From contig NIVC01004289.1 of the NCBI GenBank assembly GCA_002269645.1, forward strand, positions 1 to 51,609: a stretch of DNA of 51,609 bases, in the 5' to 3' direction. The stretch is from Macrostomum lignano. Taxonomy: Eukaryota. Under the pieces are notes generated by a model that had not been told where the DNA came from, did not search any database, and saw nothing but the letters and a program-made list of their open reading frames with translations. Positions 35,592 through 51,609 of this stretch are shown in pieces; positions within the stretch are counted from its first letter, which is position 1; each line of letters begins with the position of its first letter. A program made the translations under genes and the position numbers.

Positions 35592-35787
35592 GCCGGGATC
35601 GAGAGCTTGGATTGGTGTGTTGACTTCAACCAACCAGTCAGCTTGGTGTGTCTGGGGCAAATGACTCACGCCACTTGTCTGCTCACCTCCCTATGCCTTG
35701 CCCCCCAGTCATTGTACTCTTCTCTCTCGCACTATCCTCTTACGAGCCTCTAAAATAACATACTACGTATTTACTACTTTTTGACAG

Positions 35788-36249
35788 GCTCGCTTAACCG
35801 GCACAAGCAGACACACATCAGGCGTCTGCAACAACAACAGCTAGCAGATTTGCCGGACGAAACTTCGAGCGAGCAATTATTATCAAAACCGCCTGAGCTG
35901 GCCCAGCAACAGTCAACAGCTGACTCAGATAGCAAAGTCAATCAGTTGGAGGCATCTGCACCCGCGGTTACTTCGGCAGTATTAGCTGTAAACGGTACAA
36001 CAGAATCTTCTCCAACAGAATCGAAGCCACTTCTCCAGAAGCAGCAGCAGCAGCAGCAGCAACAGCAATCTGTTTTAGTCAACTTTTCATCCCAAAACGG
36101 TCAGGCAGTGCTGATGAGCGTGCCGACACCAAGCCTTAATGTGGTCGGATCGGCCGCTTTGCGATCTTGCGTCGCTTGCGGAGGTCGCGAGTTCGATTCC
36201 GAAGAGGCTTATCAGCAACATCAGCGGGAGCACTACTTAGCTAGCATTA
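35788..36249 (+). CDS. Zinc-finger TF exon 2
   Basis: Acceptor tttttgacag at 35787 completes finger 2 (G-SLNRHKQTH); poly-Q; degenerate finger CVACGGREF...HQREH; inferred donor A|GTCAGT at 36250, phase 1. Confidence 0.8.
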
Positions 36250-36282
36250 GTCAGTTGCGAGCCTCACCTTCAATTAGCCTCC

Positions 36283-36975
36283 CAGAGAATCCGCCCCCTC
36301 CCAGAAAATTCACCCCCTCCCAAAGAATCCGCCCCTTCCCAGATAATTCGCCCCTCCCTACGAATCTGCCCCCAGAGAATCCGCCCCCCCCCTCAGAGAA
36401 TCCGCCCCCCCTCAGAGAATCCGCCCCATCAAAGAATCCGCCCCCCCCTCAGAGAATTCGCCCCCTCTCAAAGAATCCGCCCCTTCCCTGATAATTCGCC
36501 TTTCCCTACGAATCTGCCCCCAGAGAATCCGCCCCCCTCAAAGAATCCGCCCCCCTCAAAGAATCCGCCCCCTCAAAGAATCCGCCCCCCTCAAATAATC
36601 CGCCCCCCTCAAAGAATCCGCCCCCCTCAGAGAATCCGCCCTCCTCCCAGAGAATCCGCCCTCCTCCCAGAGAATCCGCCCTCCTCCCAGAGAATCCACC
36701 TCCTCCCAGAGAATCCACCTCCTCCCAGAGAATCCACCTCCTCCCAGAGAATCCGCCCTCCTCCCAGAGAATCCACCTCCTCCCAGAGAATCCACCTCCT
36801 CCCAGAGAATCCACCTCCTCCCAGAGAATCCGCCCTCCTCCCAGAGAATCCACCTCCTCCCAGAGAATCCGCCCTCCTCCCAGAGAATCCGCCCTCCTCC
36901 CAGAGAATCCGCCCTCCTCCCAGAGAATCCGCCCTCCTAGTGAAATGCCCCCCCCCTGAGAATCCGCCCTTCAAG
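36283..36975. repeat. C-rich ~19-20 bp minisatellite (CAGAGAATCC(G/A)CCCTCCTCC) in intron 2
   Basis: Tandem array, G-rich on the minus strand. Confidence 0.93.
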
Positions 36976-37085
36976 CCGCGCCATCCTTGAGAATCCGCCA
37001 TTCAATCTGTCCTCTTCCTCCCTGAGAATTTGCCCTCTCTATGAGAGTCTTCTCTCAAATTATCGAACTCCGTATTCAATTTTAG

Positions 37086-37640
37086 CCGGCCTCTTCACCG
37101 GAGCGGCGCCAGCTCTGCCTCAGGCTACCCAGGAGCAGCTGCAGCAGCTGCAGCAATTGCAACGCTTGCAGCAGCAGCAGCAGACTCCGCCACTGTTCCT
37201 ACCGATACCCGCAGCTGCGACGGCTTTTTTGTCTCAGCAGCAGCAGCAGCAGCTAACCCCCTACTTAGCTTTGCAATTGAAAACCCCACTAGCTGAACAG
37301 CAACCCCAATCAGTGTCGCTTCCAAAGCCAATTGTCGGAGCTTCCGACATTGTTGAAACGACAATTAGCGCCGATGCCGACCAGCAGCCTTTGTGCTTGT
37401 CAGTGAAAAATCGACAACCACCAGATGGCCAGAGGCCTGAAGTTGAGCAGGACGGAGACGAGTCTGTCTTGTCTGAGCGAGGAATCTCTTCAGCCTGCGC
37501 GACCGGTGAAGATTCGAGTACTCAGGCTGCTGAGACTGAGAATATTGATGAGCTGCCGTACCGGTGCAAGATGTGCCACTGCCGGTTCAGACTGGCTGAG
37601 CAGCTGGATGAGCATTCCTCTTTTCACGATACGCCTGAAG
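37086..37640 (+). CDS. Zinc-finger TF exon 3
   Basis: Acceptor caattttag at 37085 in phase 1; Q-rich; PLCLS (PxDLS-like); finger YRCKMC...HSSFH; donor G|GTAGG at 37641. Confidence 0.82.
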
Positions 37641-37673
37641 GTAGGGACTTTTGTTTCAATTTTTAGGCTGGAT

Positions 37674-41196: not shown

Positions 41197-42465
41197 TGTT
41201 TGACTTACTTGACTTAGCTGCAGGCGGCGTCCGGCGGATGCAGCGAGGAGGCGGAGGAGACCGCCCATTTCGCTAGCCCCTGGCGACCAATGGCTTCCGA
41301 CGAAGCGATGTCGCTCAGGGGGACCCGTCGGTCTCGCCTGCAGCGCGGTCCTCCTCACCGGCGGTGGGGAAGAGATCAGCTCGTCCCGTGTCCCTGAGGT
41401 ACCGGGCGAGCGGCGGGATGCTCTCGGAAAGAACCGGGTTTGGCCCGAGGTAAGTGAGCCTGGCCCTGGTGAAAACCGGGCAGGGGCAGTGGCAGATAAA
41501 GTGCTCGGCGTTTTCACTGCCTGAGCGGCAGAAGGGGCACCGCTCCTCGGGTACTTGGCCCTGAATGAAGCTGTGGCGAGAGAAGCAGCCATGCCCGGAG
41601 AGGGCCATGCTGACTGCTCTGAGGGATCTGCGGTTGAGCCTGAGGAGGGCTCTACGCAGGAGAGGAGAGGGGAAGGGGACGGCCGCACGGGATTGCCTGC
41701 AATTCCAGGTGTCGCGCCACCTGCGGAGATGCTCGGAATCAGTCCAGCGCTTAACGCGGGAGTTGATCACTGAGGGGGATGGGGGCCCCCGGGCCCGGCC
41801 CCAGCAGCGCGCCGGCGGAGCCAGCAGGTCAGCGCGCTCGTGGCCGAGGAAACCAGCGTGGCCCAGGATCCATCTGAGCTCCACCTGGTTGCCTAGCGCC
41901 AGCCCGTTGAGCTGGGTGTTGCAGTCCAGGACAGATTTGGAGCTGGTGGTGCTGCGGCGGAGGGCCCGAAGGGCTGCTTGGCTTTCAGAGTGAAAAATAA
42001 ATTTCCGACCGCTGAGCTGCCTTCGGCGCAGCTCTGCCGCGCAGGAGCTGATAGCAAGCACCTCGCTCTGAAATACACTGGAGTTGAGCCCAGTGTGCTG
42101 GGAGTAGCTCCACACCGCTTCTCCCTTGAAGAAGGCGCAGCTCCGAAGCCTGAGAGACCATGCCTCATAGAGCCGTCAGTGTAACAGTGGACTTCAGAAT
42201 CGCTCCAGCTGTTACTCGCCTCGTGTCGAGGCTGAATAGTGACCTTATACTTTTGAAGAAGGGTGGCTGGGATCGAGTCCGTGAGAATGTTGAGCCCGCC
42301 AAACTCCTCGAGAGCCTTGAGGCAGAGGTCAGAGTGCGGGATAAGCGACCGCTTCTTAAAGGCCCGCACTTTCTTGAAGGCCACCCCAGCATCCAAAAGA
42401 CGCCGGGTGCTCTTCGCCGCCTCTCCTTTGACATAAATATCCAGAGGAAGGCAAAGGGAGTAGAG
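41197..42465 (-). mobile_element. 3-prime fragment of a LOA/R1-type LINE (RT thumb end, RNase H, zinc knuckle)
   Basis: CLPLDIYVKGEAA, CYTDGS, SVFQSEVLAI, SESQAAL, WILGHAGFLGHERADLLA, LSGHG, CPFC...ENAEHFICHCP; short (aagt/aagtc) tail at ~41197-41217. Confidence 0.88.
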
Positions 42466-42486
42466 GGTGGGGCGCCCATAGTCAAA

Positions 42487-42760
42487 ATGGACAATGGACA
42501 TCTGTGAAGGAGCTATAAGGCTCAAGTCCAGGAGTTTGAAGGACAAAAATTTATCGCTATTCACAAGTTTTACCGACACGGCAGCACGGCAAGTCTGAAG
42601 CCAGGCGTCCCAGGATTCAACCTGAATGTTTACCAATGGGAGAAATTGAAGTAGGTGAAACGCTCACTCGTGATTGCCGCACGCAACAACGAGCCCAAGG
42701 TCGTGAAACTCGGCTTTGATAAGTTTATGGAAGTGAAGGGCGGCATCATTTGGCCTTTAC
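42487..42760 (+). pseudogene. PC4/Sub1-like ssDNA-binding protein fragment (probably part of the Polinton)
   Basis: One frame: MDNGHL*RSYKAQVQEFEGQKFIAIHKFYRHGSTASLKPGVPGFNLNVYQWEKLK*VKRS..., matching the PC4 pattern V.EF.G...I.IR.YY....LKPG..G..L...QW..LK; stops at 42505 and 42652. Confidence 0.7.
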
Positions 42761-45143
42761 ATCTTGGACATGGCGGCGACCATCGGCTTGTGGTCCGTGA
42801 AAGCGGTGAACGCGCGGCCCTCCAGGAAATAGCGGAAGTGCCGGACCGCCAGGTACAGGGCGAGCAGCTCGCGGTCGAACGCGCTGTACTTCTGCTCGGA
42901 CGGGCACAGCTGCCGGCTGAAGAAGGCGAGCGGCTGCCAGGCGCTGCCAACCCGCTGCTCGAGCGCTGCCCCGACCGCGGTATCGGAGGCGTCGACGGTG
43001 AGGGCAATGGGCGCGTCTGGCCGCGGATGTGCCAGCATGGCGGCGGAGGCAAGCGCCCGCTTCGCTCCGTCGAAAGCGGCGGTCAGCTCGGGCGTCCACC
43101 GGACGAACTTCTCCTTGCCGGCCATGGCCGCATGGATGGGGCGCAGCAGCTGGGCGGCGCGCGGCACGAAGCGGTGGTAGAAATTCACCATGCCGGCGAA
43201 CTCCTGCAGGCCCTTGACGGTGGCTGGCGGTGCGAATCTGGCGATGGCGTCGACTTTGGCGGGCAGCGGCACGGCTCCCTGGGCGCTGATCCGGTGGCCG
43301 AGGAAGTCGATCTTGCTGCGGCCGAACTCGCACTTGGCCGGGTTGACGATAAGGCCGTTGTCCGTCAGGCGCTGGAAAAGCGTCCGCAGGTGCTCCAGGT
43401 GCTCTTGCGGGCTGTTGCTAGCGACCAGGAAGTCGTCGATGTAGGCGAAGACAAAGTCCAGGTCTTGGCAGACGGAGTCCACCAACCGCTGGAAGGCCTG
43501 GGCGGCGTTCTTGAGACCGAATGGCATTCGCAGGAACTCGGAAGAGGCCAAACGGGGTGGTGACGGCGGTCTTGGGCACGTCGGCTGCGGCCACGGGCAC
43601 CTGGTGGTAGCCACGAACCAGGTCGATCTTGGAGAAAACCGAGCAGCCGGCTAGGCGCACTGAGAAGTCCTGGATGTGCGGCACCGGGTAGCGGTCGGGC
43701 ACTGTGGCGTCGTTTAGCCGCCTGAAATCGCCGCAGGGCCGCCAGCCACCGGAGGCTTTTGGGACCATATGCAACGGCGAGGACCAAGGGCTGTTGGACC
43801 GGCGGCGAACGATGCCGAGCTGCTCCAGAAGCCGGAACTCCTCCTTGGCCAACGCCAGCTTGTCCGGCGGCAGGCGGCGAGGGCGGGCATGGACCGGCGG
43901 ACCCTGCGTCGGGATGTGGTGCTCCACCCCGTGTCGTGGCTCAGCCCGCTGGAAACTGGGCTCGGTGAGAGCGGGGAACTCGGCCAACAGCTGGCTGTAC
44001 GGGTCCGCAGCGGCGGCTGCGGCGAGTTGCAGTCCGGGCCCCGCGCCGTCCAGCAGGTGCACGCTGGCGAGCGAGCGGGCGTCCAGGAGGCGCCGGTGCG
44101 GCAGGTCCACCAGCAGGCCAGCAGGCCGTGGTGCCGCAGAAAGTCGGCGCCGATCAGCGGGCGGGAGACCTCGGCCAGAAGGAACGGCCAGGAGCAGCGC
44201 CGGATGCCGAGGTCCAACGTGAGCTGGCGGGTGCCGAAGGTTCGGATGAGGCTGCCGTTGGCTGCAAAAAGCGGCGGGCCTGGCGAGTGCAGGCGGGCGT
44301 CGGAACCGGCGACGGGGAAAATGCTGACCTCGGCGCCGGTGTCGACCAGGAAACGCCGGCCCGTCTGCACATCTGGGATGAGGAGCAGGCTGCTGCTGTT
44401 GCCGGCCGTCGAGCTGTTCACTGACGGCCGGCCTGCCCGTTTCCCTGGAAGCTGCACGGGAGTTCACAGCGGCGGGCCTTCGCACCGAAACGACGGTGAA
44501 AGAAACACAGGCCGTCGTCCGGGCGGTGCTGCTGGGCCGTCTCTGTCTGGCGCCCTTGCTAGCCGCAAAGACTGCCGGCTGGGCTTGCTGGGCCGGCTCT
44601 ACCGCCGGCTGCTGGACGGAGGCCGCCACCAGCTGCGGCCAGCTGGCCCAGAGCTTGTCTGCCTCCTGCGCTGCTGCCCAGGGGTCCGCGAAACTGACGG
44701 TTGTCATGGCCATGCGTACTTCCGGTGGCAGCTGCTGGCGGAACAGCTCCTCGAACAGCAGGCAGGGGCGGTGGTTCCCCAGCAGGGCGAGCATCTCGTC
44801 CATCAGCTCGGAAGGCCGCCGGTCGCCGAGGCCGGACATGCTGAGCAGGCGACTGGCCCGCTGCTGAGGAGTCAAATCGAAAGTGCTGTTGAGGCGCTCC
44901 TTTAGCTGAGCGTACTTGTTCGCCTCCGGAGGAGCCTCGAGCACATCGAGCAGGCGCTCTGCTGTCTGCTGGTCAAGAGCTGCGACCAGATGGGCGTACT
45001 TGGTCTCGTCCTGAGTGATGCCTCTCAGGGTAAACTGAGCTTCGGCCTGGATTAACCAGGCTCGAGGCTGGGCCGCCCAAAACGTGGGCAGCTTCAGGGA
45101 CACAGCAGAGTCCGGTTTGTTGGGCCATTGCACGAAATGGCTG

Positions 45144-45157
45144 CGTAGGGCTCACCA
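45144..45157 (-). promoter_or_regulatory. Primer binding site, tRNA-Trp type
   Basis: TGGTGAGCCCTACG, 1 nt after the LTR end; 12/14 match to the complement of the tRNA-Trp 3-prime end (TGGTGACCCCGACG), the primer typical of CsRn1 elements. Confidence 0.75.
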
Positions 45158-45158
45158 A

Positions 45159-45370
45159 TGAAGCGGCTTGCGAGTGGAAGCTTGAAAAGCAGCAAGCGAG
45201 CAAAAGCTATTGTGTATATTTGTTTAAGCATAGTCTTTATACTTGAGAGAATAGGGAGGTGTGAGTCAGAGCGAACTGGCTGGCTGGGCAAAACTCCCCA
45301 GCAGCCAGGCGTGCAGGGGCCTGTACACAGGCGGGCCCGCTCTCAACCGTGCACCAGTCTGGCCGCGACA
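45159..45370 (-). repeat. 5-prime LTR (212 bp)
   Basis: TGTCGCGG...CCGCTTCA ends (TG..CA with a short inverted repeat) directly upstream of the PBS. Confidence 0.8.
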
Positions 45371-45713
45371 AGGTACTGCTTACCTTGACTCCGGTTTGAG
45401 TCCTTGCGAGAGCAGAGCTGTTTCTTCCATCTAGTAAAATTCTGCATTGGCTGGGATTTGGAAACCAGGCTGTGAGTCAACTAATTGCAACTGGAGCTCC
45501 TTGTTGAGAACAGTTGGAATGAAAGCCGGCATTGAATGGGGCAACTACCTGTCAAAAATATTTAAGAAAACAATATTCTTCCCGATTCAACGAATCAGTC
45601 TTCTTCACAGCATTCGAGTTCAGCTCCGTGACATCTATGGTTGCCCACTGATTGCACAGACTCACAGCCCTGTTCTGCTCACAGTTCAGATTCGGGAGAA
45701 ACGCATTCAATGA
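45371..45713 (+). pseudogene. Polinton minor capsid (penton) protein, C-terminal part
   Basis: SSLLRTVG...IFKKTIFFPI...HSIRVQLRDIYGCPL...VLLTVQIREK resembles the recalled Polinton mCP C-terminus; 5-prime part cut by the Gypsy LTR. Confidence 0.65.
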
Positions 45714-46087
45714 ACTACCAGCAGCTGATCCAGCAATATTCGGGGGTTTGGACAGGACACGAAAAGCCTGCACTCTATGGCTGTGGGAGCTTCCCAGGGA
45801 TCATGACATACCAGCCTCCGCCAGCGGCTACATCATCATCATCACCCTCGACGCTTAGCAGCGTCAGGCGCAAAAGAAACACTGAAGCAAGTCCGAAACG
45901 ATTGAAGAAGAAGAAGCGCACCCGAAAGGCAACTGGTGGAAATCGCAATAAGAGGTCGAGCAAGGCTAGTGGGAAAAAGCTTAAGAATAGGAAGACAAAA
46001 ACAAAGAAGAATGCAGCAGGCGGAGGAAAGCGAAAGCGAAAAGTCAGCAAGAAAACTGTGAAACGCGTGCTCGACTCTCTGTCATAG
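45710..46087 (+). CDS. Basic K/R-rich putative core (DNA-condensing) protein, 125 aa
   Basis: Intact ORF starting in an ATGA overlap with the mCP stop; LYGCG near the N-terminus; very basic C-terminal half; ends 2 nt before the MCP ATG. Confidence 0.7.
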   Translation: MNYQQLIQQYSGVWTGHEKPALYGCGSFPGIMTYQPPPAATSSSSPSTLSSVRRKRNTEASPKRLKKKKRTRKATGGNRNKRSSKASGKKLKNRKTKTKKNAAGGGKRKRKVSKKTVKRVLDSLS

Positions 46088-46089
46088 AC

Positions 46090-47368
46090 ATGGCTTACGG
46101 ATTCAATCCCCGACTTGATGTACTTAAGACGCCCGTTCTACAAACCTGCATTGAAAAAGCTACTTATGTTGATATTCACCCAGTTAATTCCATTGCTGCA
46201 AATTCTCCCATTGAATTTGACTGCCACCAATCCGCCGATGAATACACTGATCTGCTTAATTCTTTTCTTTATATTCGCTGCCGCCTTGTGAGACTGGATG
46301 GGGGTTTGCTGAGGCAGGATGTTCGAGACGGAGATGGCATCATCACCGAGCGCAGAAACTGATGTGCACCCAGAAAATTTTGTTCTGTCTACAGCCTTCT
46401 CAGATGTAATTGTGAGCATTAACCAGCGAGTGGTGTCTGGTGGAGACCAGCTCTATCCCTACCATGCGTACTTCAAAGCTCTAATCAGCTCATCCGATGC
46501 CCAGCAACTAAAACTTTACCCTGCTGGCTTCCTGGAGCCGGACTCGGCAGCTGAAGAGCACACGGAGAGCCACAGGGAATCCCGATGGATGGAGTATGCG
46601 GGGCCGCTCTTCAGTGATGTTTTCCAGTGCCCAGTGTTTCTGCTAAGCAATCTGCACTTGCACATCAAACTGGTCCCCAGCGATGGGGCCTTTGCCATCA
46701 GAACCCGAATGCAAACAACGCGGCATACCGAATGGAATCTCTCACTGCATTTTGCAACTTCGCCAAGTCAAAGTGGTGCCTCACATCAGCCTGGCCATGA
46801 GCAGGGATTGACAAACCAAAATGCACTATATCCCATCGAGCGAACTGAAATGCAGAACTTCATCTTACCCCAGGGTATCCAGTCAAAAAACATTGAAGGA
46901 TTCACTCATGGAAAATTGCCGAAGTTCATCATGCTGGCCTTCGTGAGCCACTGAGCATTCAACGGTCATCATCACGCGAGTCCGTTCCAGTTCCAGAGCT
47001 TCAACCTCAGCCGGTTGGCTCTAAAGAAAGGTGGATAAACCGTGTGCCACGGCGCCTTTACACCTGAAAACAATTCCTTTGTAAGAGAATACTTGCACTA
47101 TCTGAAAAGCTGTCAATCTGCAAGCCTCACAAATTTGGTCCCGTGGATCCCCTACTAGCTCTTCTCCAACAACACCACGGTGTTTGCATTCGATCTCACA
47201 CCAGAGGGAGCGGCTCTGTGGTACGGACAGAAGGAGGGCAACTTGCGGCTGGAGATTCGCTTCCAACAGGCACTGAATGAAGCGGTGTCCCTGATTGCTA
47301 TGTGCCTGTATGACTCACTGCTTGAAGTCACCAAGCACCGGGAGCTTTTGCTGGACTATTCCTCTTAA
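46090..47368 (+). pseudogene. Polinton double-jelly-roll major capsid protein
   Basis: QTCIEKATYVDIHP..SPIEF, YTDLLNSFLYIRCRL, YPYHAYF, ALYPIER, LPKFIMLAFV, AFNG..SPFQFQSF, FAFDLTP, GNLRLEIRF; frameshift at ~46335 and premature stops. Confidence 0.88.
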
Positions 47369-47373
47369 CTGGC

Positions 47374-47884
47374 ACGGACGCAATTCAACTATTCAATCTC
47401 GCCAAAAAAATTTGCCTGGCCAAAAATTTCTCATAATTACTTTCATTTGCGCTATAAAAATTATCTGCCCTTGAATGTAAAAAGAAAATTTCGATCATCA
47501 ATTTCCCTTGAAAGCAAGTTTGTTTTTGTTCTAATACAGCACAATGGCTCATTTAGTCACTGGGTGGTGTGCTATGTTAGGCAAGGAAATTGCATTGAGA
47601 AGCTCAACTCCCTCGGCTGGGAACCTGAAATTTTATTTGTGGTTAATAATTTGTTTCGAGAGATTAAAACAACTGGCTTTTCGCTCCGAAGCAATATAAA
47701 CAGAATTCAATGTGCCAACTCAAATAAATGCGGAGTGTTTTGCATCTATTTTGCTTATCAAAAGTTTCTGTTTAATCGGTCATTTGAGGGGATTTTGAAG
47801 AGTTTTCACGATGTTGAAAAAAAATATTTGAATGATAGAATCTTACAGAGGTTTGAAGCCAACTTAAGAAAAAGATGTCCGTGA
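47374..47884 (+). pseudogene. Adenain-like cysteine protease (Polinton PRO)
   Basis: SHWV (His), LNSLG (FDSFG-like), IQCANSNKCGVFCIYF (Gln, Cys); N-terminus disrupted and start uncertain. Confidence 0.85.
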
Positions 47885-47913
47885 TTTTCTAGAACTATAT
47901 TTATGCATTAGAC

Positions 47914-48310
47914 ATGGCCGAAAAGCGAGTTTGCTACGATATCCGCCTCAGGCAGGGAAGCTGCATGATTGTCTGCGGGCCCACCAATGCAGGAAAAACA
48001 AACTTTGTCAAACACCTGATCCAGTACAGAGACGCCATGTTTAATGTGAAGCCTGGCAGAGTTCTGTGGTACTATGGGATCTCACAGGCAGGCCATGCAG
48101 AACTGAGCAGCCTAGGTGTGCAGCTGCGCCAGGGATTTCCAACCAACATCGAGGCAGCACTTAGGCCAATGACCTGGTTGTTTTCGATGACTTAATAGAG
48201 GAAACTTCAAATTCTGCTTCAATGCGAAATTTTTTCACAGGAATCGCACATCACTTGCCGTGCTTTTTGGTGATGCTGACTCAGAATATATTTTTCAAGG
48301 GAAAAGAGTT
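47914..48310 (+). pseudogene. A32/FtsK-type packaging ATPase, truncated
   Basis: Walker A GPTNAGKT; after a frameshift at ~48165, Walker B DLVVFDDL and LTQNIF; ends abruptly. Confidence 0.88.
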
Positions 48311-48311
48311 G

Positions 48312-51150
48312 AATAGTTGAATCTTGGCAGCACGGCGAGTTGACGCGAACCAGGACTTCAGTTTAGTGTTGAAAAGTGTGTACATAACAAGCTTTGAATC
48401 GTCCAGAACACATTGGCCGATGTTCGCCGGTCGAGGCGAACGGATGTCTTGCTTAGCTCAAAGATGCTCAAGTTTTCTTTGATGATGCTGAATGTCTTGA
48501 CGTTAGGCTTTGAAGCCAGAACTTGAGCTTGATGATCACTGTTACAGATTCTCACATCTCTCCTCTTCGAACGTTCTCCATAGTCTTTCCAAAAAGACTA
48601 TTGTTCTTGGTCTTGTAGTAGTTCTTTTCGATTTCTGTAGATGCTTTTGAACGCTTTTCGCTGTTGCTATCGATGTAGCTCTTGAACACTCGCTCTTATC
48701 GAAAGCTGATGGCTCGCCGGAACTTGCTTACGCGCATGCCTTGTTGAAGGTAGAACTTGAGCACTCTGCTATGAACAACATAGGCTTCTTTGTCTTGACA
48801 AGTGAGAAGCAGTTTTCGCGTTCCGTGGTACTTTTTACCTGGATTTAGCTGATGCCATAGCTGCTGCATATAGGCTGGAAAGTCTTCAAACTCAATAGTT
48901 CCCTTCTCTGGGGCCAGTGGCAGCTCCTCGGTCTTCTGGTGAATGCATTCTGTATATTGCAGATCGACTTCCATGAGATAGGCATGGGCACCATCATCTT
49001 GCATATTGAGAACAGTGCTTTCATCCCAACTTCGCAGCTCGTCTTGATCGACCCATCGAAATTCACTCACGGGTAGCGGCATAGAGAGAGCCTGACCATA
49101 TAGGTTGTTGACATCTAGCGGAAGTAAGTATCTGTGTTCCTCTTCCTCTTCATCTCCACCGCTCGCGGAGACCTGGTGTACATTGGTGAAAGTAATTCCT
49201 CCTCGGATGCCAGCCTCTACCATGCGGTACATGTCACCATCGACTAGAAGCTCCAAGCGATGTTTCGCACACTTAAGTGCCGATTCGAATGACAATTCTG
49301 GTGCCGTGATAAAGTGCACCGGATCCAAGCCGTCGTCAGCAAGACTCAATCTCCTGAATGATTCGAATGCATCTGCCAATTGGCGGATGTCTAATTCTAG
49401 GTAGGCCATCATGTACTGTCCAAGGTTACTGACCTGCAATTCATGCCACGCTCGCAGTGCATGCTGATAGTCTGCATCAGGACAAGGCGATTGCGTGAGC
49501 ACGTTGAAAAAGTTCTCTTGCGACGGCAGACTCGTAACAAGCAAATCGGCAGGTTTCTTCACAGCGTCGTAGGGAAAAATCCCCTTACTTAGCAGAATAG
49601 CATTAGAAAGTTTCGGATGGTGCACCTTCATCTCCAGCGTAAGAGGGCAACTTTCAGCCGTTAAAGTGCGCATCAAAGTTTCAAGACTACAACCCAGAAA
49701 ATTGAGTGAGTCTAAAAATTGGACGGTAAAATTGAGCGGACGCTTCTTGCCGAACGGTAAGGTGTACTCACCAACTGGAAATTCCGCCTTCAAGCAAAGG
49801 TACCGTTCACTGGTCTGGGGAATCACGCTCAACTTCCAGTGTGTCATCTTGAACAAAGCCGTCGAAAAAATCAGATGTAGGTCGTAGGATTTGAGGTTGT
49901 GGAAGTACACTGGCAAAAAGCGTCGCTTCAACTGAGCCTTGAGGTTGCATGCAGCACACGCAGCACGCGGAAAAGCCCAGTCAGATGATTGTGATCCCAC
50001 AGTTTTTCGGACGGACACGAAAAAGATTCGTCACAGTAGTAGCAACTCTGAGCTGTTTCGAACTTTCGGTTAGCTTCTTCATTGACAATCTTCTTTTGGT
50101 AGCTGTGTTCTCGGTTCCATTGAAAGATTTCCTTTGAAAGCGTCTCAAGGGATCTAAGGAATTGTTCGACACACAGTTCTGGATCGTCTTCTCTGAACAA
50201 TTGGAGGCTTTCATTCCTGCCTTTGAGATCAGGGCCTGCAGTATTTTCGCTTTGTACTAGCAGGTAGCCGACTGCAGCTGGAAGATGCTGGGAAAGCTTT
50301 TTGGTTCCGGCAGCGGCTCCGCGGACTTCATCATCAACATCAGCATTGAATGACTCCATATCAGCGTAGACTGTAAACGGCGGTGAAATAGTTTTCTGCC
50401 AGTTTTGGAAGTCAAGCAGTTGTTTTCCTCCGTTGGTAATACTTCTTTGACGGAAAGCTCGTCTGACTCGTAGCAGCTCTGCCGGTGCTCTTGCAGTCTC
50501 TCCTCTGACCTGAAAGCGGATAGACAGCGCTCGCCACTTGCGCTGGTGAAGTCCATCTTTGCTGTTGAGTAGACTATTCATGTTTACAATCGCACACCAG
50601 TGAGAGCTGCCAGAGTCGTCGTCAATGAGGTGAAGCAATGGCAGAAGGCGGCGCCCTACTGTGATGGCTGCTTCTGGTTGACGCAAAACTTCCACTTTAC
50701 CAGCACGCCAGGAAAGCACTGTGAAGCAGAAGTCAGGGTTCAAGTTCTCAATCTCGTCTAAAGCATAGATACTCACTGGCATGGTTATGCCATTCAAGCA
50801 AATTTCGTGAAGCCAAGGCCGGTAGGTTGCAAGCGCGTGCGGAGATTTTCGCAAACTTTCCTCTCCATGATGCAGCACTGCTAGACAGGCATACAGAAAC
50901 CAATTTTCACCTTCACTCGGTGGGTTGATTACGGCCTGCTTCTGCTTAAGACCTTCGGGAAGTACAAAGCTGCTGCTTCTACCAACATAGTAGCGCACGC
51001 GATCGCCACGGGAAATGCAGACATCAAAGAAGTTGATTCCACCTATGGTCCAACCACTGCCGTTCGTGTTCATGGACTCACAAGTCCTTTCGCAGGCTGC
51101 TAATTGCGACTTCCACCAATCTTCAAAATTCCGAATCTCTTCTAAGCAGC
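48312..51150 (-). pseudogene. Protein-primed family B DNA polymerase (pPolB) with Polinton-type N-terminal region
   Basis: NGSGW, VYADMES, DHNHLTG..CAACNL, FHNLKSYDLH, FLDSLNF, KGIFPYD, GIRGG, LDVNNLYG, KNNSLFGKTMEN; several frameshifts and a stop at 48696; cut just before the YxDTDS motif. Confidence 0.93.
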
Positions 51151-51214
51151 TGCGGGGTGCGGGCAATCGGCACGTCCTGCTCGACATCGGCGGGGCCGGA
51201 AAAATGGGGTGGGC

Positions 51215-51500
51215 GCTCTATAGCAAATCAATGGCTCGCACCTACTACTAACGTTGGTGCATTGCCCACGTTACAGAAGTTGAGGTTAGTGCTGCTGACA
51301 TAGGCCAGCAGCTCCTCGCCTCTGTTGTTGGTGTTCTTGCTGCCCCAATGGAGGTGGTGCGCGTTCACATCCCCTGAAATGAGCAGTTCGAACGGACGGG
51401 ACGCGGCGTAGTCAATAAGGTTAACTAGCGCGTCGCAAACTACTGGGGCATCGCCTTGGAAATAGGAAGATGCTGCCAGTACAGGTTTATTGGGAAGGAG
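51215..51500 (-). pseudogene. APE endonuclease fragment of a LOA/R1-type LINE
   Basis: Translation by hand (absent from the ORF track): VLAASSYFQGDAPVVCDALVNLIDYAASRPFELLISGDVNAHHLHWGSKNTNNRGEELLAYVSSTNLNFCNVGNAPT. Confidence 0.85.
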
Positions 51501-51609
51501 GTTATTTTTTTTTTTTGAACAACACAGATGTCCAAATAAATCACAGAGGTCGAGAGATCAGGTCTCATTCATGCCTCAAAAGCTTTAGCAGCAAAGATCA
51601 GAGATCTTG

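What the first reader, a model, noticed from the sequence alone, without database searches (positions are those of the whole stretch)
45371..51150. Endogenous Polinton/adintovirus-like virus with a full morphogenesis module
Minor capsid, basic core protein, major capsid, adenain protease and packaging ATPase are tightly packed on + (ATGA overlap, 2-nt and ~30-nt gaps, no introns), converging on pPolB on the minus strand. That is the gene set of a virion-forming Polintoviricetes-type element. This copy is dead, but the family may be undescribed for this host and intact copies may exist.
Basis: partly seen in the sequence, partly recalled or inferred. Interest (0 to 1): 0.85.

Follow-up and report, generated by a model that had tools for sequence, protein, structure and literature searches.

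The report
Flatworm Polinton carrying its own TBP
This is a broken copy of a virus-like element (a Polinton) that has multiplied in a flatworm genome, and its sister copies carry their own TATA-binding protein plus a shared DNA signal before most genes, which likely lets the element switch on its capsid genes itself.

Summary
Confirmed as a Polinton/Maverick. 45406-51249 is a dead, internally deleted copy of a multi-copy family in Macrostomum lignano (host named by database hits). 33 other module copies match at 93-95%. Sister copies are 16-17 kb, with AGTAGT inverted ends, 6-bp target duplications (4 of 6 two-ended copies) and an integrase. A sister MCP folds as a double jelly-roll (Foldseek E 3e-15). 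ATPase abuts pPolB here only because 3.35 kb is deleted.

(1) The deleted part normally encodes a two-repeat TBP under purifying selection, with an altered DNA-binding face. It is present in two families only 41% alike in MCP.
(2) TAAGAA lies 42-147 nt before 8 of 12 genes, on the coding strand only, and is kept across saturated synonymous divergence. It is absent before PC4 and pPolB.
(3) Near-identical capsid cassettes (94-99%) carry four pPolBs only 47-57% alike. This copy is itself a mosaic.

That TBP reads the motif is inferred, not shown. Virions and expression are untested. Polymerase swapping is known. TBP is listed once for a MELD virus in print, and this scan noted Polinton TBP plus motif before in other genomes.

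The parts
41318..42485 (-). LINE (RNase H-bearing 3' part) into which the Polinton inserted; not part of the Polinton
   Evidence: PF00075 weak hit. LINE copies align on both sides of the element in the twin contig C286 with 39 nt missing.
42486..42754 (+). Left remnant of the Polinton: 5' part of the PC4-like gene (residues 7-86), C906-type
   Evidence: 94% to C906/C728/C136, no match to C754. The sister protein hits PF02229, E=5.5e-8.
42755..45370 (-). Truncated Ty3/Gypsy retrotransposon (gag, RT, RNase H; one 211-nt LTR at 45160-45370) standing where the PC4 3' end, integrase and mCP 5' half were
   Evidence: Pfam DUF7041, RVT_1, RT_RNaseH. The LTR has 38 other matches among 40 scored.
45406..45713 (+). 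3' remnant of the probable minor capsid (penton) gene
   Evidence: tblastn 96-100% to the sister ORF. The sister model is low confidence, but its named hits are minor capsids, adomavirus LO5 and mavirus penton.
45563..45568 (+). TAAGAA motif, 147 nt before the basic ORF
45710..46087 (+). 125-aa basic ORF, open; probable DNA-binding core protein (inferred from composition)
   Evidence: 35 K+R of 125. dN/dS 0.15-0.31 between distant sister lineages. No Pfam hit.
45982..45987 (+). TAAGAA motif, 108 nt before MCP
46090..47368 (+). Double jelly-roll major capsid pseudogene. Stops at 46952, 47036, 47156; indels near 46359, 46735, 46794 shared with the twin contig; one near 46703 differs between the twins.
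   Evidence: fold of an open sister copy
47374..47884 (+). Adenain-type protease pseudogene (no start codon; indels near 47410 and 47443 shared with the twin)
   Evidence: PF00770 E=2e-3 here and 7e-5 (above cut-off) in a sister copy
47865..47870 (+). TAAGAA motif, 49 nt before the ATPase
47914..48309 (+). Packaging ATPase, residues 1-132 of 215 (Walker A and B visible), cut by the deletion
   Evidence: only weak A32/FtsK Pfam scores
48309..48313 (.). Junction of a 3,348-nt deletion that removed the ATPase 3' end, two small conserved ORFs, the exonuclease-like gene, the TBP-like gene and the pPolB 3' end
   Evidence: blastn against C754; gene map
48313..51153 (-). Protein-primed B-family polymerase with endonuclease VII-like insert, C754-type, truncated at both ends (ends just before catalytic motif C)
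   Evidence: PF03175 E=7e-11; PF02945 E=4e-7 in the sister; 95-99% to C754, 47-57% protein identity to other types
51154..51249 (-). 96 nt beginning AGTAGTAGG at 51249: probable remnant of the right terminus
   Evidence: The LINE match stops exactly at 51250 in all 38 other hits. The piece matches only the window and its twin among held loci.
51250..51609 (-). LINE endonuclease domain, interrupted by the Polinton
   Evidence: PF14529 E=1e-10

Best explanation
The stretch is a dead, internally deleted, mosaic copy of a multi-copy Polinton family of a flatworm, whose sister copies encode their own TBP that likely reads a shared TAAGAA promoter signal to switch on the capsid and packaging genes. 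Steps: (1) Integration by the rve integrase at AGTAGT-ended inverted repeats with a 6-bp target duplication (footprint shown). (2) Excision and protein-primed copying of a linear genome by pPolB (inferred from family knowledge). (3) PC4 and pPolB, which lack the motif, would be early genes on host promoters; the element's TBP would then bind TAAGAA with host TFIIB and Pol II and drive the integrase-capsid-protease-ATPase cassette and its own gene (motif and gene shown; binding inferred). (4) Packaging into a double jelly-roll capsid and protease maturation (fold and purifying selection shown; particles inferred). (5) Co-resident copies recombine, so one capsid cassette is found with several polymerases and end types (pattern shown; mechanism inferred). 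(6) This copy inserted into a LINE, took a Gypsy insertion and lost both its integrase and its TBP through deletions (shown; order of events not shown).
For: Architecture, TIRs (669, 413 and 135 nt) and matching 6-bp flanks in C754, C114, C84 and C738. MCP model pLDDT 84, pTM 0.86; best PDB matches are PBCV-1, mavirus and Sputnik capsids at E 3e-15 to 6e-14. Nei-Gojobori dN/dS between distant open copies: MCP 0.07, integrase 0.03-0.07, mCP 0.18-0.20, protease 0.15, TBP 0.20-0.29. TBP: PF00352 E=8e-25, two repeats; 152 genome matches, 25 identical over 190 aa; present in a second family with 41% MCP identity. TAAGAA ranks first of all 6-mers in the -70..-5 windows (12 of 29 starts, P about 1e-11). 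In the cassette it occurs 9, 9 and 7 times on the coding strand and 0 on the template strand in three lineages (shuffles 1.6-2.4 and 1.3-1.4). It is kept at homologous sites where synonymous divergence is near 1 or saturated and where the encoded residues changed (LKN to PKK, YKK to FKK), and at similar distances in the second family. The TBP clade keeps the YEPE loop and the second-repeat phenylalanines but has fixed changes in repeat 1. Mosaicism: C754 and C114 are 96-98% alike on both sides of pPolB but 57% alike in pPolB protein; the window has a C906-type left end and a C754-type pPolB.
Against: No transcription start site, binding or particle data. The motif was first noticed by eye in the same sequences, so the P values are partly post hoc, and the lineages are related, not independent. 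The total count of TAAGAA inside C906 ORFs (7) is not above synonymous-codon shuffles (mean 5.6, P=0.33): the signal lies in position and retention, and the coding strand is lysine/A-rich. Distances to ATG are uneven (10-147 nt). The protease and the 230-aa ORF lack the motif, and in the second family no motif was found before TBP or the ATPase. In that family the motif often reads ATAAGAA or TATAAGAA, which host TBP could plausibly bind. No TBP-less Polinton was obtained as a control. Two of six two-ended copies (C1944, C1021) show no matching 6-bp flanks. The assembly has single-base errors and twin contigs, so copy numbers and intactness are uncertain.
Confidence: 0.6

Rival explanations
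1. Same Polinton, but TAAGAA is a TATA-box variant read by host TBP or a host TBP-related factor. The element's TBP acts as a decoy that titrates TFIIB or other TBP partners, dampening host genes or its own.
For: In the second family the motif often reads ATAAGAA or TATAAGAA. The element's TBP has lost the canonical residues at two of four DNA-kinking positions and one of two central asparagines while keeping the acidic loop (residue roles recalled), as expected for a partner-binding decoy.
Against: The repeat-1 changes are fixed across proteins under 40% alike, environmental relatives included, which fits a new specificity better than decay. In the first family the motif is mostly CTTAAGAA, a poor canonical TATA box (recalled consensus).
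Confidence: 0.27
2. The family now spreads only inside the genome as a self-synthesising transposon. Capsid genes and motif are carried along from a recent viral ancestor and no particles form.
For: Many assembly copies have stops or frameshifts. No related capsid was found in IMG/VR, phage or JGI metagenome scans. Between very close copies dN/dS is higher for some genes (0.5-0.7 for protease, basic ORF and the 112-aa ORF, on 7-20 changes).
Against: 28 of 102 listed MCP matches span the whole protein without a stop. MCP dN/dS is 0.07-0.17 at every depth. Even the window copy's private changes are mostly synonymous in MCP (22 synonymous, 12 missense, 2 nonsense).
Confidence: 0.1
3. The mosaic copies and fold-back forms are long-read assembly chimeras among repeats rather than real recombinants.
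For: The assembly is repeat-rich, and twin contigs differ by 8 indel columns in 9.1 kb.
Against: The window mosaic is on two contigs. C754 and C114 each have their own matching target duplication. The fold-back element has the same junction on two contigs and matching CTCACT flanks. The polymerase types differ by about 50% in protein, which error cannot create.
Confidence: 0.03

Closest known systems
Animal Polintons/Mavericks (class Polintoviricetes); vertebrate Mavericks of PMC8097293 (passages read)
   Same: pPolB, rve integrase, MCP, mCP, protease and ATPase in two converging modules; intronless; (AGT)2 ends; 6-bp target duplications; purifying selection on capsid genes.
   Different: Carries a two-repeat TBP, a PC4-like and an exonuclease-like gene, and a shared upstream motif. 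That paper has no occurrence of 'TATA'. I did not test whether the 112-aa and 230-aa ORFs match its pw/pz/pm genes.
Alpha adintoviruses and MELD viruses, PMC8502044 (sections 7 and 10 and passages read)
   Same: PF03175-type PolB, adenain, hexon, penton, FtsK-type ATPase and rve integrase. The Fig. 5 legend lists a gene 'similar to TATA binding proteins' in the figure of MELD viruses and related elements.
   Different: The legend does not say which element, the figure could not be seen, and no promoter motif or function is discussed in what I read. No flatworm is mentioned in the main text; supplements were not read.
Nematode Polintons with swapped pPolB1/pPolB2 (10.1101/2023.08.22.554363, passages) and replicase-morphogenesis mosaicism in Polisuviricotina (10.64898/2026.10.13.758929, passages)
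   Same: Near-identical structural genes joined to different polymerases within one host; endonuclease inserts in pPolB.
   Different: Here four polymerases 47-57% alike share one 94-99% cassette, a fifth type rides an 85% cassette, and the switch point recurs in the middle of TBP, so its C-terminal repeat changes together with the polymerase.
Cellular and archaeal TBP (PF00352; best PDB sequence match 1mp9, E=2e-18); viral TBP mimics of beta/gamma herpesviruses that read TATT (recalled, no call)
   Same: Two-repeat core, YEPE loop, second-repeat phenylalanines.
   Different: No N-terminal extension; repeat-1 F to P and F to Y, repeat-2 N to T. A separate clade: 7 sequences score 160-338 bits, then ordinary TBPs at 125 bits or less.

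Membership tests
Polinton/Maverick (Polintoviricetes) | Protein-primed B-family DNA polymerase | tested here: met
   PF03175 E=7e-11 in the window and 7e-20 in a sister; exonuclease and polymerase motifs in the 1,096-aa ORF of C906
Polinton/Maverick (Polintoviricetes) | Retroviral-type (rve) integrase | tested here: met
   Absent from the window copy (deleted). PF00665 E=3e-13 plus chromodomain in sister copies.
Polinton/Maverick (Polintoviricetes) | Terminal inverted repeats with AG/AGT ends | tested here: met
   AGTAGT ends, TIRs of 669, 413 and 135 nt in C754, C114, C84. The window keeps only a probable right-end remnant.
Polinton/Maverick (Polintoviricetes) | 6-bp target site duplication | tested here: met
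   4 of 6 two-ended copies (C754, C114, C84, C738); not in C1944 or C1021; untestable in the window because the left end is lost
Polinton/Maverick (Polintoviricetes) | Double jelly-roll major capsid protein | tested here: met
   AF2 pLDDT 84 on a 26-sequence alignment; Foldseek PBCV-1/mavirus/Sputnik E about 1e-14 to 3e-15, TM 0.55-0.64
Polinton/Maverick (Polintoviricetes) | Single jelly-roll minor capsid protein | tested here: inconclusive
   Model pLDDT 44 (6 sequences). Best Z 7.0 (rmsd 3.8, 115 aligned) to a PBCV-1 capsid chain, mavirus penton Z 5.4, unrelated beta-sandwiches tied. BFVD named hits are mostly minor capsids and LO5 at TM about 0.3. Gene position fits.
Polinton/Maverick (Polintoviricetes) | Adenain/Ulp1-type cysteine protease | tested here: met
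   PF00770 23.0 bits against a cut-off of 21.3 in a sister; His, Asn, Gln and Cys motifs present
Polinton/Maverick (Polintoviricetes) | A32/FtsK-type packaging ATPase | tested here: met
   Walker A and B visible in sequence. Pfam A32/FtsK scores are weak (E 0.01-0.03), so the subfamily call leans on gene context.
Polinton/Maverick (Polintoviricetes) | Length about 15-20 kb, intronless genes | tested here: met
   16.5 kb (C754), 16.8 kb (C114), 16.8 kb (C1021); C84 and C738 are deleted forms of 12.1 and 11.0 kb
Polinton/Maverick (Polintoviricetes) | Forms virions | not testable with these tools
   Only indirect: purifying selection on capsid genes
Alpha adintovirus | PolB of the pfam03175 type | tested here: met
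   definition from PMC8502044 section 7
Alpha adintovirus | N-terminal OTU domain on PolB; placement in the Alpha clade | not tested
   A Cys/His pattern upstream of the exonuclease domain is visible by eye. No profile, fold or tree with named references was run.
Canonical TBP (PF00352) | Two-repeat saddle | tested here: met
   Two Pfam stretches, E=8e-25; PDB sequence matches; no structure was predicted
Canonical TBP (PF00352) | Four DNA-kinking phenylalanines and two central asparagines | tested here: not met
   2 of 4 Phe and 1 of 2 Asn kept in the alignment with a plant and an archaeal-type TBP (residue roles recalled). So it is a TBP-like factor, not a canonical TBP.
Canonical TBP (PF00352) | Binds a core promoter and recruits TFIIB | not testable with these tools
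   The YEPE loop is kept in the genome copies aligned; binding is untested

The most novel reading that the evidence does not exclude
A 16-kb animal Polinton virus runs its own two-stage transcription programme: a self-encoded TBP of changed specificity, helped by a PC4 co-activator, redirects host Pol II to a private TAAGAA late promoter, a trick otherwise recalled only for much larger DNA viruses. The TBP's C-terminal half is exchanged together with the polymerase at a recurring recombination point. The family has very young copies in a transgenic-tractable flatworm, which makes the Polinton life cycle testable in an animal.
Probability: 0.4. Interest if true: 0.8.

Novelty: new variant of a known kind. 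Interest (0 to 1): 0.55.

Why it matters
How animal Polintons control their genes, and whether they form particles, is open. PMC8097293 (abstract) states that Maverick particles have not been observed. A family with a candidate late promoter, a candidate factor to read it, and many near-identical copies (25 identical TBP ORFs; 28 of 102 MCP matches full-length and stop-free) in a laboratory flatworm turns this into direct tests: start-site mapping, binding assays and RNAi. It also gives a within-genome snapshot of polymerase swapping with mappable breakpoints. The flagged copy itself is an ordinary fossil.

Tried and rejected
Expression: the look-up of sequencing runs listed no holder on record as RNA. 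Contigs of three guessed-RNA runs and one run of unknown kind covered all 30 bins of a sister copy, non-coding ends included, with no splice-like joint. This cannot separate transcription from DNA carry-over, so no verdict. Those contigs differ from the assembly copy by a few single-base indels, a further hint that some breaks in assembly copies are read errors.

Pattern scans of IMG/VR with the MCP and TBP alignments and of JGI metagenomes with an MCP alignment found no relative. The integrase scan gave one 26%-identical locus with no capsid or TBP match. Phage records gave no MCP match. So no TBP-less Polinton was available as a motif control, and the range of the TBP outside this host is not mapped.

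Other readings considered: a 'TAGACATG' start motif, seen before MCP and ATPase only, was dropped. The exonuclease ORF's read-on into TBP as a second coding region: the frame is open longer than shuffles give (P 0.008-0.022), but the extension is not conserved as protein (dN/dS above 1 in that frame), so it was not accepted as dual coding. The idea that direct ATPase-pPolB adjacency is an element feature was rejected (deletion). The idea that all breaks in the window are real was rejected: indels near 46703, 48165, 48567, 49965 and 50533 differ between the twin contigs.

Not run: complex prediction (TBP-TFIIB contact needs DNA and no host TFIIB was in hand), a phylogeny with named Polinton references, and Repbase/Dfam (not available). 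Atlas searches gave only unnamed virus-rich or arthropod clusters, with a Maelstrom lead at 0.88 for the exonuclease-like ORF.


Full report
Observation. The window is the whole of contig C4289 in a 764-Mb genome. Database names of near-identical proteins give the host as Macrostomum lignano. The ATGA overlap and the 2-nt and 29-nt gaps are as described. Pfam recognises pPolB (E=7e-11) and weakly the protease (E=2e-3); MCP, mCP and the basic ORF have no Pfam family.

The family. 35 of 42 matches to the module cover nearly all of it: the window, a 99.9% twin on C286 and 33 others at 93-95% (40 of 167 candidates scored; twin contigs mean matches are not insertion counts). C754 and C114 hold 16.5 and 16.8-kb elements with AGTAGT-ended inverted repeats and identical 6-bp flanks; so do the shorter C84 and C738. 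Two further two-ended copies (C1944, C1021) lack matching flanks. The gene order is PC4-like, integrase with chromodomain, mCP, basic ORF, MCP, protease, ATPase, 112-aa and 230-aa ORFs, exonuclease-like, TBP-like, then pPolB with an endonuclease VII-like insert on the other strand. 28 of 102 listed MCP matches span the protein without a stop (98 of 492 candidates scored).

Folds. An open natural MCP, folded on 26 of the 31 sequences at hand (two genome copies plus 24 of 29 homologues; four long and one partial hit left out), gave pLDDT 84 and pTM 0.86. Its best PDB matches are PBCV-1, mavirus and Sputnik capsids (E 3e-15 to 6e-14). In BFVD the top hit is a 26%-identical protein from a Cotesia bracovirus record. 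The mCP model is poor (pLDDT 44); its hits lean to pentons and minor capsids but are not decisive.

State of this copy. It lies inside a high-copy LINE, which stops exactly at 51250 and resumes on the other side in the twin contig with 39 nt missing. 51154-51249 starts with AGTAGTAGG and is probably a right-end remnant. A truncated Gypsy element stands where the integrase was. A 3,348-nt deletion joins the ATPase to pPolB just before catalytic motif C and removes four whole genes, TBP among them. MCP has three stops and three indels shared with the twin; the protease has no start codon and two shared indels; several other indels differ between the twins and are probably assembly errors. Its private substitutions across the module are 33 synonymous and 41 non-synonymous or nonsense (ratio 0.35; P=1.5e-5 against neutrality). 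So most of its 5% divergence arose while its lineage was still under selection, and it died fairly recently (inference).

TBP and motif. The TBP-like ORF hits PF00352 with two repeats (E=8e-25) and solved TBPs. It has 152 matches in the genome, 25 identical (150 of 231 candidates scored), and evolves at dN/dS 0.20-0.29. It is also in a second family with 41% MCP identity. Against 1.84 billion representatives, 7 sequences score 160-338 bits: four named from this host and three unnamed or environmental. Ordinary TBPs follow at 125 bits or less. The clade keeps the acidic YEPE loop and the second-repeat phenylalanines but has fixed changes on the DNA face (residue roles recalled). TAAGAA lies 42-147 nt before 8 of 12 located starts in C906 (integrase, mCP, basic, MCP, ATPase, 112-aa, exonuclease-like, TBP) and not before PC4, pPolB, the protease or the 230-aa ORF; the last two closely follow a motif-bearing gene. 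It is the top 6-mer in an unbiased scan (12 of 29 starts), coding-strand-only in the cassette, kept where synonymous sites are near saturation and residues changed, and placed alike in the second family before mCP, basic, MCP, 112-aa and exonuclease-like genes but not TBP or ATPase. Against it: I saw it first by eye, the lineages are related, its total count in C906 ORFs is not above codon shuffles (P=0.33; in C754, C84 and C130 P=0.04, 0.01 and 0.013), and no TBP-less control was obtained. The window keeps three sites (45563, 45982, 47865).

Mosaicism. From mCP to the first TBP repeat, C906, C754, C114 and C1113 are 94-99% alike in 500-nt tiles (one tile 91%), yet their pPolBs are 47-57% alike as protein and their integrases 78-86%, except C754/C114 at 99%. 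C754 and C114 match at 96-98% on both sides of pPolB. C1113 and C130 share a 73% pPolB under 85% MCPs. The window has a C906-type left end (94%) and a C754-type pPolB (95-99%), a type found only on C754, C1944 and the twin among 40 scored matches. These are identity comparisons among selected copies; no tree or donor test was run.

Mechanism. Shown: integration footprints, capsid fold, purifying selection, the TBP gene, the motif and the mosaic pattern. Inferred: protein-primed replication, particle formation, and TBP-driven late transcription from TAAGAA with host TFIIB and Pol II. I put the Polinton identity at about 0.97 and the TBP-reads-motif step at about 0.55-0.6. The main rival is that host factors read the motif and the element's TBP is a decoy.

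Literature. Searches of the held library for Polinton with Macrostomum (one unrelated paper), M. lignano with transposable elements and Maverick (none), Polinton with TBP/TATA/PC4/promoter terms and general lists found no description of this family or of a Polinton TBP-promoter pair. Subscription papers, Repbase, Dfam and all supplements were not seen, and these may list the family. PMC8502044 (sections 7 and 10, passages) and its preprint 10.1101/697771 (passages) name a TBP-like gene in a MELD-virus figure legend. 10.1101/2025.04.19.649669 (passages) reports Orthopolintovirales insertions in a rhabditophoran flatworm. 10.1101/2023.08.22.554363 and 10.64898/2026.10.13.758929 (passages) describe polymerase swapping. 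PMC8097293 and PMC11161782 (passages) gave family definitions. PMC12801592 and 10.64898/2026.06.19.733378 (term searches) had no Polinton and no TBP mention respectively. PMC4028283 was seen only as a listing with the start of its abstract. After my own, I found three unchecked notes of this scan that report Polinton TBPs in other genomes, two with a shared promoter-like motif read as the TBP's target and one with p53/CREB-like motifs. They are not independent evidence, but they suggest the trait is wider than my searches showed. Nothing was on record for this genome or sequence.

Verdict. The flagged feature is real and is a fossil of a known kind of element. The family behind it is a new variant by its TBP and candidate promoter, with known-type polymerase swapping unusually visible. 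Interest 0.55.

Noticed in passing
G000:C3189:41270-55822 and G000:C2301:56054-70947: One fold-back insertion seen on two contigs: two left arms head to head (98.9% alike), no polymerase, joined at TBP codon 114 / ATPase codon 143, same junction on both, matching 6-bp flanks CTCACT. It resembles a copy-back defective genome that integrated after rearranging, which would point to an extrachromosomal stage.
   Followed up: partly
L021:7210-8302; L050:720-1812: In both families the exonuclease-like ORF reads on 109-128 codons into the TBP gene in the -1 frame (shuffle P 0.008-0.022), yet the extension is not conserved as protein. Unexplained.
   Followed up: partly
TBP codon about 112-116 in C906, C754, C84, C130: Synonymous divergence jumps from 0.09-0.16 in the first TBP repeat to over 3 or saturated in the second for otherwise close pairs: a recurring recombination point next to the polymerase module.
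   Followed up: partly
G000:C738:322283-333319; G000:C110:296001-308567: A second Polinton family (MCP 41%, integrase 53-57% to the first) with different gene order, also with TBP, exonuclease-like and PC4-like genes. The two copies seen have deleted polymerases.
   Followed up: partly
window:42755-45370: Gypsy family with 211-nt LTRs about 4.1 kb apart in several contigs and 85-98% LTR identity.
   Followed up: no
window:38638-39387: Host C2H2 zinc-finger exon on the + strand (PF00096 E=2e-10), with glutamine-rich ORFs upstream at 35754-37666 that may belong to the same gene.
   Followed up: no
window:1-18000: Dense run of strand-biased satellites of period 4-39 nt.
   Followed up: no
P0029, P0035, P0036, P0038: Public gene models for this host fuse Polinton ORFs, TBP included, into long chimeric proteins under misleading names (Parvo_NS1, Ig-like, ABC transporter), which would hide the element's TBP in annotation.
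   Followed up: no
window:45371-45405: 35 nt between the Gypsy LTR and the mCP remnant that did not match the sister Polinton tested.
   Followed up: no
G000:C1944:71276-76993: A 5.7-kb insertion splits the integrase of this copy; its 6-bp flanks are reverse complements of each other rather than a direct duplication.
   Followed up: no
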